Shown here piece after piece: positions 1 to 3,000 of a stretch of DNA of 21,095 nucleotides. The stretch comes from a virus (taxonomy: Duplodnaviria > Heunggongvirae > Uroviricota > Caudoviricetes). Position 1 is the first letter of the stretch; each line of letters opens with the position of its first letter. Made by a program: the position numbers. The stretch lies in the IMG/VR virus record IMGVR_UViG_2534681832_000043. One strand, given 5' to 3'.

Positions 1-3000
1 ATGCCAAAACTCACAGATATGCAGATCCGCGCATGGATAAAGGCGGGAGACAGATTTGATGGCAAGGCAGACGGCAACGGCCTTTATATTTGCTACCCCA
101 AAAACTACACAGTCCCGTTCTGGCGATTCCGCTATAAGCTCGCAGGAAAGCAGCGGGCTATGGTTATAGGCTCTTACTCCGAACTGTCACTATCAAAAGC
201 CAGAGAAACAGCAAAAGAGCTGTCAGCCAGAGTTGCTCTTGGCTATGACGTAGCAGCAGAGAAACAGGAACGAAAAGCTGAAGCACTGGCAAAAATGGAG
301 GCTGAGAAAAACGCCATGCGTGTTTCAGATCTGGCCTCCGAATACTTCGAGCGCCAGATACTTCCGAGATGGAAACATCCCGATATCCTTCGCCGGAGAA
401 TTGATAAGGATATTAACCCCTGCATTGGGCATATGAAGGTAGAGGACGTTAAGCCACGTCACATTGACGACATGTTGAAAGGTATCGTTGACCGAGGAGC
501 ACCAACGATAGCAACAGATGTATTACGCTGGACACGCCGTATCTTTGACTATGGGATAAAACGCCACGCTCTGGAGATAAACCCTTGTTCAGCGTTTGAA
601 GTATCTGATGCTGGTGGTAAAGAGGTTTCCCGCGACCGTTGGCTAACTCGCGATGAGCTTATCAGGCTATTCGAGGCTATGCGCACCGCAAAAGGATTCA
701 GCCGCCAGAACGAACTGACATTTAAGCTATTGCTGGCACTATGCGTTCGTAAGATGGAGTTATGCGCCGCACGATGGGAAGAGTTTGATTTAGATGGTGC
801 GGTATGGCATTTGCCGGAAGAACGCAGCAAAAACGGAGACCCTATTGATATACCTCTACCTTCCCCAGCCGTTGAATGGTTGAGAGAGCTACACACCTTT
901 TCATGTAATAGCGCATGGGTGCTTCCAGCCAGGAAAATGCAAAACAGAATGATCCCACATATTCAGGAAAGCACTTTACCCGTAGCACTGGCTAAGGTTC
1001 GCGCCGAAATGCCGGATGTGCCTAATTTCACGATTCACGACTTCCGACGCACCGCACGTACTCATTTAGCAGCGTTGGGTGTTGATCCTGTCGTGGCGGA
1101 ACGATGCCTCAATCATCGCATTAAGGGCGTAGAGGGGATTTATAACCGCCATCAGTATTTTGATGAGCGTAAAGCAGCACTGGCACTGTGGGCTGATCTG
1201 CTGGTGGCACTGGAAAGCGGAAAAGACTACAACGTAACGCCTCTCAGAAGGGCGAACTAACTGAATAGATTGAGCCTAGCTCGACGGGGCGAAAAGCGGG
1301 AAGCCTTACCGCCTGGCTCAATCACAAAATAAGGCGCAGCGTAAAAGGTGACGCAATGAACGACTCTCATGAAACAACTGCGGTGCATAGAAATTTATGG
1401 CAGGAATCAGGTATCCCACCTTTGGACTACTGCACGATAGAGCGAGCATCAAAATTATTAAATTGTGAAATTGATGATATATGGCATTGGAAAGATAGAC
1501 TACATATAGACTTTTATGTCTATGCTGACTTTCTTGATTTCATTGAAGCTGATGCCACCATCCACTTCAAAAAAGATGCTGATTTTATAACTGATTTATT
1601 ACTTATGTACCCAGAAGAAGTAAGGTTTACATTTCCTTTTCTTATTACCAGCGCAAGCAACGAAGTTTATATCCCAGCATCTGAAAGCGGTGCTTATGAG
1701 CTATTTTATGCACATAAACCACTGACAGTTGAAGACAGAGACAATAAAAATGTTTTTGAACAAATTGGCAAAAACTCTTTTATTGTAAGAAAATCAATTG
1801 CATGTGGATTGTTGCGTGTACGCGGTAGTACAACACGACATTATCATTCACAAGAATGTGGAGAGCCATATGTGCGACTTGAAGCAACATTTGATTGTGA
1901 TCTATATAAATTCAAAATGCAAAGTTCCCAGATTCACCTGAGTAGCCTGTCAGATAAAAACATTTATATAACAAAGGCTGATTTAGAATATCTTCACGAC
2001 GCAAAGGTTAATGGAAGTTTTGACGCAGCTAAGAGCAAAAAACGATACGAAATGGCGGTAGAACAGGAACTAATACCTGAAATAAAAAATAGCAACCATA
2101 ATGCCGAGAGACATGCTGAAAACAGGGAAAAACTTTTCAAATCAGCAATATATCTTTTGTCAAAGTATCCTGATGAATGCCGTGGCAAAAAGAAAGAAAT
2201 AAGCCCTGAGAAGTGGCGGGATTGCATAGTGGCTCATAAAGACGAAATTCCACCGTTAGCAATCACAAATGAAGATGTGATTTTGAGACACTTACGTGCT
2301 GCCGCCAACGGTAAGGGGTAGAGTAGCTAACTATTCAGGCACAGTATCATTACTGTGCCTTTTTATTGTTCATATATGTACAGATACTTCCTCCCGTAAC
2401 GAAGCAACAACTATCGCTAAGAGGTTACGGGAAGCATGAACACCGACACTATTCCTACAAAAGGCTATATCAGACGCTTCCGCCTGGCTGAATTGCTGGG
2501 CGTTAGTGTATCCACCATCGACCGTAAAGTAAGAAACGGTTCACTACCACGTCCGGTAAAGCTGGGAGAAAAAATAACTGCGTTTGATGCGGTTGAGATT
2601 CACAACTGGCTGGCAGAACGCCGCGGGAAGGTGGCCTGATGGAAAAGAAAAACCGCCCATTACAGGCGGCTAATTCAGATATTCGCGTATCTGATGTTAC
2701 GCCCCTTACAAAATCCCTTCAAGAACCAAAGCGCACACCGAAAAAGCATCGTGCCAGAGTCTATATGCTTCGTACTGGTATAGAGGGATGGACAGAAAAT
2801 GACATTCTTCGCTACTGCCGTCTGTCTTCTGGTCGTAACTATGCAACAGAGTTAGAACGCCAGCTTGGAATCACTCTGGAGCGTATCGACGAAAAGAATC
2901 CTGATGGTATCGGAACACACCTTCGCTACCGTTTCTCCTGCCGTGGTGATGTTCTGAAAGTGATCACTCATGTTAACCATCTTGCGAACATAAATGATCA

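What the first reader, a model, noticed from the sequence alone, without database searches (positions are those of the whole stretch)
1356..2321. AT-rich orphan gene in the integrase-alpA cargo slot: candidate single-gene defence or accessory function
A 321-aa ORF with sharply lower GC than its neighbours sits between the integrase and alpA. In related P4-like islands this position holds variable cargo. I could not recognise any domain by eye; one Rx5H stretch (RGSTTRH) is too weak to call HEPN. Integrase-proximal AT-rich orphans in satellites are often anti-phage or anti-helper genes.
Basis: partly seen in the sequence, partly recalled or inferred. Interest (0 to 1): 0.62.

Follow-up and report, generated by a model that had tools for sequence, protein, structure and literature searches.

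The report
Hypervariable gene between integrase and alpA
The AT-rich gene is real, but it is not an orphan: it is one allele of a large, undescribed, fast-diverging protein family that always sits between the integrase and the alpA master activator of phage-satellite islands, so it is more likely part of the island's own control circuit than a random defence cargo, although its function remains untested.

The parts
1..1260 (+). Tyrosine integrase of the island (insertion site next to yicC)
   Evidence: Pfam Arm-DNA-bind_3 9.6e-20, Phage_integrase 6.9e-17, Phage_int_M 1.1e-16. It lies next to yicC in E. coli genomes.
1268..1323 (+). Inverted repeat in the int-X spacer (9-nt arms GATTGAGCC/GGCTCAATC with 38 nt between them); role unknown
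   Evidence: the repeat finder. No sigma-70-like promoter was found in 1261-1355. In other family loci X starts 12-19 nt after int or overlaps it, which suggests co-transcription of int and X. This is an inference.
1356..2321 (+). Gene X: the 321-aa AT-rich protein, one allele of the int-alpA slot superfamily
1413..1571 (+). N-terminal module (aa 20-72): predicted MerR/excisionase-type winged helix-turn-helix, family motif PPxxYCxLxRAAxxLxCxxxDLLHxAxxGxIxLC, net charge -6
1572..2087 (+). Hypervariable middle (aa 73-244): beta-rich and acidic, with no fold match. It contains the non-conserved RGSTTRH stretch. The short conserved DLxIT motif lies at its C-terminal edge.
2088..2318 (+). Near-invariant C-terminal helical module (aa 245-321): NHxAERHAxNREKLFKSAIxLLSKYPDECRG.KKEISPEKWRDC..H..EIPPL.ITNEDVILKHLR
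   Evidence: 29 invariant columns across 21 sequences, almost all of them in this module. It is 79-86% identical to Salmonella, Klebsiella and Intestinirhabdus homologues whose remaining sequence is 24-38% identical. pN is 0.11-0.31 while pS is 0.71-1.0, so selection is strongly purifying and the similarity is not due to recent DNA transfer.
2337..2360 (+). Intrinsic terminator of gene X (10-bp stem, 4-nt loop, T-run)
   Evidence: A hairpin at the equivalent position follows the slot gene in most of the other loci (my reading of the printed sequences).
2367..2382 (.). Allele-specific near-palindrome TGTTCATATATGTACA in the short variable stretch that must hold the alpA promoter; a candidate operator (speculative)
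   Evidence: the repeat finder I3/I4. Other alleles that share an identical AlpA carry different palindromes at this position: L003 TGTATATCTATACA and L002 TGAGCATGCACA. None is evident in L005, L008 or L010.
2392..2432 (+). Conserved inverted repeat or hairpin just before the alpA start (TCCCGTAAC-N23-GTTACGGGA), overlapping the Shine-Dalgarno sequence. It marks the right-hand boundary of the swapped cassette.
   Evidence: The RNA fold is -15.4 kcal/mol with z=-2.9. The arms differ between lineages but stay complementary.
2436..2639 (+). alpA, the master activator gene of Gram-negative PICIs
   Evidence: Pfam Phage_AlpA 2.2e-8. Role as described in PMC6092414 and PMC11773190.

Best explanation
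Gene X is a component of the satellite's own life-cycle switch, not interchangeable cargo. I propose that it is made together with the integrase while the island is integrated. I propose that it holds the alpA-dependent induction programme in check, or sets its specificity. It would do this either by binding an allele-specific site in the alpA promoter region through its N-terminal MerR/excisionase-type winged HTH, or by binding a basic partner protein such as AlpA or Int. The very divergent acidic middle would be the specificity or sensor surface, for example for a helper-phage protein, in the way SaPI Stl repressors work. The near-invariant C-terminal helical module would provide a conserved contact or oligomerisation function. 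What is shown: the three-module anatomy; the strict int -> X -> alpA order across distant islands; replacement of alleles as a cassette that includes the alpA promoter region; and purifying selection. What is inferred: co-transcription with int, DNA or protein binding, sensing of the helper phage, and any effect on alpA.
For: (1) Synteny. X lies directly between int and alpA in the E. coli yicC-site islands, in Salmonella, in Klebsiella at a different site with Int 64% identical, and in four further species (Intestinirhabdus, Pectobacterium, Kosakonia, Symbiopectobacterium). In a fifth, a Pantoea MAG whose Int is only 27% identical, X follows int but tblastn did not detect alpA downstream. Six of six distant superfamily members with informative contigs have an AlpA/HTH_17 gene immediately downstream. 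In five of these six an integrase is visible immediately upstream. (2) The family has no match in 50,697 phage genomes. Its full-length relatives in the plasmid collection are on 21-23 kb Klebsiella circular records, and the one I inspected has the same X-alpA order. The family therefore appears tied to this module. (3) The only recognisable fold is a MerR/Xis/AlpA-type wHTH, the fold used by regulators and directionality factors of mobile elements. (4) Cassette behaviour. Islands with Int 98%, AlpA 100% and the next gene 97% identical have X alleles 25-40% identical. The swapped segment runs from the int stop to the inverted repeat just before alpA, so it includes the alpA promoter region. 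This resembles a heteroimmune regulator-plus-operator region. Three alleles carry different palindromes at that position. (5) X starts 12-19 nt after int or overlaps it in several loci and ends in a terminator, which gives the layout of a maintenance operon. (6) Selection is purifying within the allele and strong on the C-terminal module. (7) The literature leaves the role open. Whether Gram-negative PICIs have a repressor is 'unclear', and the way helper phages switch on alpA was not identified (PMC6092414; PMC11773190 confirms that alpA is induced specifically by the helper).
Confidence: 0.4

Rival explanations
1. X is an anti-phage or superinfection-exclusion gene, expressed from the integrated island in the manner of a lysogenic-conversion gene. 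The variable middle would recognise phage components. Diversification would reflect an arms race. The conserved C-terminal module would be the effector or an adaptor to a host target.
For: GC is lower than the backbone in every allele, 0.37-0.43 against about 0.50. The gene has its own terminator. It is the most variable locus in near-identical islands. The slot can also hold unrelated genes such as L004 and L005, and a small unrelated protein in EcCIMP1 (PMC11773190). Its position suggests expression together with int in the integrated state. In SaPIs, accessory genes can sit between int and stl (PMC6092414). EcCIMP1 gives superinfection immunity with no known defence system detected (PMC11773190), so undescribed satellite-encoded exclusion functions do exist.
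Against: There is no reproducible hit to 5027 PADLOC models in 44 family members or in the other slot alleles. No nuclease, HEPN, TIR, ATPase or membrane-effector-like fold or motif was found. The Rx5H stretch is not conserved. Unlike typical defence genes, the family was found in no other genomic context and in no phage genome. The island's recognisable defence gene (AbiD, E=2.7e-57) lies in the accessory region at the other end, beside perC.
Confidence: 0.3
2. X is an accessory factor of the recombination module. It would modulate Int or AlpA/Xis activity, for example as an excision inhibitor or a directionality or site-choice cofactor, through protein-protein contacts made by an acidic Xis-like wHTH.
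Against: The conserved C-terminal module does not track the Int or AlpA type. L006 has AlpA 92% identical to the window's but lacks the conserved C-terminal module, and L010 has Int only 64% identical but keeps it. Characterised PICIs excise with Int and AlpA alone (PMC6092414, PMC11773190). Extreme divergence of the middle is not expected for a cofactor of conserved recombination proteins.
Confidence: 0.12
3. X is a decaying or selfish remnant with no current function.
For: There is no recognisable catalytic or binding motif, and divergence is high.
Against: The gene is intact in 77 of 77 E. coli occurrences. Synonymous changes are in excess within the allele. Selection on the C-terminal module is strongly purifying while synonymous sites are saturated. 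Length is conserved at about 300 aa across 632 representatives.
Confidence: 0.03

Closest known systems
SaPI Stl / Gram-positive PICI Rpr master repressors
   Same: They are encoded next to int in a phage satellite and made in the integrated state. They combine an N-terminal HTH with a highly divergent remainder. Alleles differ sharply between otherwise related islands, and in Stl this divergence matches different helper-phage inducer proteins (PMC6092414, PMC6695447).
   Different: There is no sequence or fold relationship. Stl/Rpr is transcribed divergently from the lytic operon, whereas X is co-directional with alpA and separated from it by a terminator. The wHTH of X is acidic. Neither repression nor inducer binding has been shown for X. 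Gram-negative PICIs are described as activator-driven through AlpA.
MerR-family regulators and excisionase/AlpA-type (HTH_17) winged-helix proteins
   Different: No Pfam MerR, HTH_17 or Phage_AlpA match reaches threshold. hhalign against AlpA is not significant. A variable domain of about 130 aa sits between the wHTH and the long helix. The module is acidic rather than basic. The size is about 320 aa, against 60-150 aa.
Immunity regions of heteroimmune temperate phages (lambda/434/21/P22-type cassettes)
   Same: A regulator-sized gene and the adjacent promoter DNA are exchanged as a block between otherwise near-identical elements, with breakpoints in conserved flanks.
   Different: No repressor activity, operator or divergent promoter pair has been shown, and the protein family is unrelated to cI/Cro.
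Prophage and satellite 'moron' defence genes (for example AbiD in this same island, or the P2 and P4 defence hotspots)
   Same: AT-rich, delimited by a terminator, variable between related elements, and close to the integrase.
   Different: X matches no defence model. The variation is mostly between alleles of one family. The family is confined to the int-alpA position, whereas hotspot cargo is drawn from many families found in many contexts.
YfjH of E. coli K-12 cryptic prophage CP4-57
   Same: An uncharacterised protein of the same size (318 aa), also located between intA and alpA.
   Different: It is on the opposite strand and is not homologous: hhalign probability 0.3%, and no hit with the family HMM.

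Membership tests
HEPN nucleases | Conserved Rx4-6H motif on an all-helical HEPN fold | tested here: not met
Known anti-phage defence families (PADLOC-DB v2) | Significant, reproducible match to a defence-protein HMM | tested here: not met
   The only hit is PDC-S31 at E=0.002 and 15.5 bits, in 1 of 21 and 1 of 44 members. The other slot alleles have no hit.
MerR family transcription regulators | N-terminal winged HTH of the MerR type | tested here: inconclusive
MerR family transcription regulators | Dimerisation coiled-coil directly after the wHTH, and binding to a palindrome within a 19-20 bp promoter spacer | tested here: inconclusive
   A long helix (aa 224-270) exists but is separated from the wHTH by a variable domain of about 130 aa. 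A near-palindrome lies in the presumed alpA promoter, but the -35 and -10 elements could not be placed. Binding cannot be tested here.
AlpA / excisionase (Pfam Phage_AlpA, HTH_17) | Sequence-profile match above threshold | tested here: not met
   No hit for the window protein at E up to 1. HTH_17 appears in 1 of 44 members at E=0.005, and I did not check that hit against the model's curated score cut-off. hhalign of the N-terminal profile against an AlpA profile gives probability 0.9%.
Stl/Rpr-type satellite master repressor (functional class) | Divergent transcription from the lytic operon, repression of that operon, and relief by binding a helper-phage protein | tested here: not met
   The orientation criterion is not met, because X is co-directional with alpA. 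Repression and inducer binding cannot be tested with these tools.
Gram-negative PICI (the element that carries X) | Unidirectional int, alpA and primase; no phage structural or lysis set; size about 10-20 kb | tested here: met
   int at 1-1260, alpA at 2436-2639, primase at 7073-9427 (Zn-ribbon, Toprim, DUF5906), an AntA/Ash zone, then only P22-type ejection-protein genes, and PerC. The related UMNK88 island lies between yicC and dinD.
   No Psu, Delta or Sid match among the larger ORFs of the window that were scanned against Pfam.
int-alpA slot superfamily (defined here) | A protein of about 270-350 aa with the N-terminal PPxxYCxLxRAAxxLxCxxxDLLHxAxxGxIxLC motif, encoded directly upstream of alpA | tested here: met

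The most novel reading that the evidence does not exclude
X is the missing helper-sensing element of Gram-negative PICIs. It would be an allelic anti-activator or repressor, made together with Int, that keeps alpA silent until a helper-phage protein engages its hypervariable middle domain. The X allele, together with its linked promoter segment, would then determine which helper phages can induce a given island. This would be functionally convergent with SaPI Stl but built on an unrelated acidic MerR/Xis-like scaffold.
Probability: 0.2. Interest if true: 0.8.

Novelty: new variant of a known kind. Interest (0 to 1): 0.52.

Why it matters
Published descriptions of Gram-negative PICIs give the integration zone as int plus alpA (PMC10111431). 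They also leave open how a helper phage switches on alpA and whether a repressor exists at all (PMC6092414). This work identifies a third, previously undescribed player in that zone. It is a large protein family confined to the int-alpA position, and its alleles are swapped between otherwise identical islands together with the alpA promoter. If it controls induction, it would explain helper specificity and make that question directly testable through allele-swap experiments. If it turns out to be an exclusion gene, it would be a new satellite-specific defence family with an unusual architecture. Either way, the family merits a name and a knockout.

Tried and rejected
2. PADLOC PDC-S31: a chance hit, present in 1 of 44 members.
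3. Weak Pfam hits DUF6137 and DUF1140 (E 0.02-0.19, below threshold): ignored.
4. K-12 YfjH as a family member, a lead from memory based on the same slot and size: not homologous.
5. EcCIMP1_002 as an equivalent gene: a small, unrelated protein.
6. PDB sequence searches with family profiles: nothing meaningful.
7. Foldseek against PDB and BFVD: no hit at E of 1e-3 or better. The AFDB50 library was unavailable.
8. Homology of the N-terminus to AlpA by hhalign: not significant.
9. Recent DNA transfer as the reason the C-terminal module is so conserved: rejected, because synonymous sites are saturated.
10. Positive selection on the middle region: cannot be assessed, because both dN and dS are saturated between alleles.
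11. One shared operator for all alleles upstream of alpA: not supported. Palindromes are specific to each allele and are seen in only three alleles.
13. The genome-contig scan returned only 5 confirmed loci, so contexts of distant members had to come from individual look-ups.

Full report
**Observation**

The ORF at 1356-2321 (+) is present and encodes 321 aa. GC falls to 0.33-0.38 across 1351-2250, against 0.46-0.52 in the flanks. The gene as a whole is 0.37, int 0.49 and alpA 0.50. Upstream lies a tyrosine integrase at 1-1260, and downstream lies alpA at 2436-2639. An intrinsic terminator at 2337-2360 ends the gene.

**What the element is**

Downstream of alpA the window encodes:
- a 143-aa protein;
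- an AntA antirepressor, a DUF4222 protein (as annotated in UMNK88) and an Ash-family protein;
- a Zn-ribbon/Toprim/DUF5906 primase at 7073-9427;
- DUF2824, P22 gp7-like and gp20-like ejection proteins, the last apparently interrupted by an IS3-family element;
- an AbiD/Abi_2 gene at 18648-19610 and perC at 20327-20614.

No psu, delta or sid genes were found. This is the four-zone Gram-negative PICI layout described in PMC10111431. It resembles EcCIMP1, whose helper is the temperate phage Kapi1 (PMC11773190). It is not a P4-like satellite. In E. coli the island sits next to yicC.

**The gene is not an orphan**

A first search found 48 homologues in Escherichia, Salmonella, Enterobacter, Cedecea, Buttiauxella, Pectobacterium, Pantoea, Serratia, Klebsiella and other genera. 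An exhaustive profile search found 632 representatives at the 50% clustering level with E of 1e-3 or better, and 163 with E of 1e-10 or better. Almost all are 270-350 aa. Every named member is annotated "hypothetical protein" with no Pfam domain. Neither the window protein nor 44 diverse members match Pfam, NCBIfam, PHROGs, PADLOC or PDB sequences in any reproducible way. The PDC-S31 hit at E=0.002 occurs in one member only.

**Anatomy**

Alignments A1 and A3 and the AF2 model (pLDDT 72.5) show three parts.

3. *C-terminal module (aa 245-321).* A long helix is followed by a small helical module that is nearly invariant: NHxAERHAxNREKLFKSAIxLLSKYPDECRG.KKEISPEKWRDC..H..EIPPL.ITNEDVILKHLR.

The protein is acidic. 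The wHTH module has a net charge of -7 to +1, against +6 for AlpA. The middle has a median of -14, and the median pI is about 5.5. DNA binding therefore cannot be assumed from the fold.

**Selection**

In comparisons with eight other alleles, the C-terminal module has pN of 0.11-0.31 while pS is 0.71-1.0, which is saturated. Its conservation therefore reflects strong purifying selection on old lineages and not recent DNA exchange. The N-terminal and middle parts have pN of 0.40-0.63. Within the window allele, two sub-variants differ by 7-10 synonymous and 5 non-synonymous changes, giving omega of roughly 0.15-0.25. The allele is intact and single-copy in 77 of 5426 complete E. coli genomes.

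**Position**

- The order int -> X -> alpA is found in the E. coli yicC islands and in Salmonella.
- It is found in Klebsiella at a different site next to der, with Int 64% identical.
- It is found in Intestinirhabdus, Pectobacterium, Kosakonia and Symbiopectobacterium. In a Pantoea MAG whose Int is only 27% identical, X follows int, but tblastn did not detect alpA downstream.
- Six of six distant superfamily members with informative contigs (profile E-values from 1e-25 to 1e-11) have an AlpA/HTH_17 gene immediately downstream. Five of these also show an integrase immediately upstream.
- There is no match in 50,697 phage genomes.
- Full-length relatives in the plasmid collection lie on 21-23 kb circular Klebsiella records. 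The one I inspected has the X-alpA-antirepressor order, so these are probably excised islands.

**Variability**

Of 686 E. coli genomes that match part of 1-3100, only 75 match at least 80% of it. Islands with Int 98%, AlpA 100% and the next gene 97% identical have slot proteins only 25-40% identical. All alleles are AT-rich, at 0.37-0.43. With an HMM built from 144 independent representatives, four of six distinct E. coli slot alleles (window, L002, L003, L006) are full-length family members at E 1e-38 to 1e-56. L004 and L005 are not. None hits PADLOC.

The swapped segment runs from the int stop to a conserved inverted repeat immediately before alpA. It therefore includes the terminator of X and the 30-40 bp that must hold the alpA promoter. 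Three alleles that share an identical AlpA carry different near-palindromes there. Other alleles show none.

**Interpretation**

The slot is indeed variable, but "orphan cargo" is wrong. Defence has no positive support, although it is not excluded.

The best-supported reading, at a confidence of about 0.4, is a life-cycle control or sensor protein co-expressed with int and acting on the int-alpA switch. It rests on four points:
- the exclusive association with int-alpA modules;
- the regulator or directionality-factor type of fold;
- the maintenance-operon layout, with X starting 12-19 nt after int or overlapping it in several loci;
- the immunity-region-like cassette that includes the alpA promoter.

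The literature leaves room for such a factor. Whether Gram-negative PICIs have a repressor is "unclear", and the route by which helpers induce alpA was unidentified in PMC6092414. PMC11773190 confirms that alpA induction is helper-specific.

Several facts weigh against this reading. The wHTH is acidic. The gene is co-directional with alpA. Some islands carry non-family genes in the slot. Well-studied PICIs appear to function without X.

The main rival, at about 0.3, is an exclusion or defence gene expressed in the integrated state. It fits the AT-richness, the private terminator and the variability. It does not fit the strict synteny, the absence of any effector-like feature, or the fact that the island's recognisable defence gene (AbiD) lies in the far-end accessory region. 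A role as an Int or AlpA cofactor (about 0.12) is a further possibility.

**Novelty and score**

This is an undescribed family in a much-studied class of elements, at a position relevant to an open question. The functional evidence is entirely circumstantial. I rate it a new variant of a known kind (a satellite regulatory or sensor protein), with interest of about 0.5.

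Noticed in passing
window 2392-2432 (also L013, L015, L016, L017, L020 just upstream of their alpA start codons): An inverted repeat, TCCCGTAAC-N23-GTTACGGGA, ends 3 nt before the alpA ATG and takes in part of the Shine-Dalgarno sequence. As RNA it folds at -15.4 kcal/mol (z=-2.9). Other lineages have different arm sequences that stay complementary (CCCCATAAC/GTTATGGGG, CTGCCA/TGGCAG, ATCTGCCGT/ACGGCAGAT, TGTGAAA/TTTCACA). This suggests either a conserved leader hairpin that controls alpA translation or a palindromic operator.
   Followed up: partly
window 2367-2382; L003 and L002 at the equivalent position: Allele-specific near-palindromes lie between the terminator of the slot gene and the alpA leader repeat: TGTTCATATATGTACA, TGTATATCTATACA and TGAGCATGCACA. 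All three islands have an identical AlpA. These are possible cognate operators, but no such palindrome is seen in several other alleles.
   Followed up: partly
window 18648-19610 (+): A clear AbiD/Abi_2 abortive-infection gene (PADLOC AbiD E=2.7e-57; Pfam Abi_2 E=3.6e-52) lies in the far-end accessory region. It is the island's one recognisable defence gene. It is flanked by unannotated ORFs at 17377-18033 (-) and 19612-20067 (-).
   Followed up: partly
window 20327-20614 (+): A PerC-family regulator (E=2.6e-33), like those on EcCIMP1, EcCICFT073 and EcCIEDL933. The EcCIMP1 homologue was reported to repress LEE1 expression (PMC11773190).
   Followed up: no
window 11342-17314: A block of P22-type genes: DUF2824 at 11342-11803, gp7-like ejection protein at 11797-12474, gp20-like injectosome translocase at 12474-13586, and a 701-aa ORF at 15209-17314. 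The block is apparently interrupted by an IS3-family element on the minus strand (rve transposase at 13393-14283, upstream ORF at 14280-14606). It points to a P22-like helper phage.
   Followed up: partly
L022 (CP031371.2, 21,845-bp circular Klebsiella pneumoniae 'plasmid'); also NZ_CP033626.1 and LR134256.1: Small circular records typed as non-mobilizable plasmids carry a distant X homologue. In CP031371.2, the one I inspected, it is followed by AlpA, an antirepressor and DUF4222. These records look like excised, circularised PICI-type islands deposited as plasmids.
   Followed up: partly
L001 21356-22321 (E. coli UMNK88) compared with window 1356-2321: The same X allele (4 nt differences) sits on an island with a different replication module: a 920-aa TOPRIM/DUF927 primase instead of the window's 784-aa DUF5906 type. 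The UMNK88 copy has G151R at a position that is nearly invariant across the superfamily.
   Followed up: no
L023 (E. coli ECONIH4) 2594 onward: An ISSpu7-family (IS1634-like) element is inserted immediately downstream of the slot gene, in place of the alpA promoter and alpA. Int and X remain intact, so this is a natural alpA-less derivative.
   Followed up: no
window 2639-3070 (+): The 143-aa protein directly after alpA overlaps the alpA stop codon. It is highly conserved across these islands (75-97% identity). In some RefSeq genomes it is annotated as a 'PM1773 family protein'. Here it gave only weak winged-helix Pfam hits below threshold.
   Followed up: no
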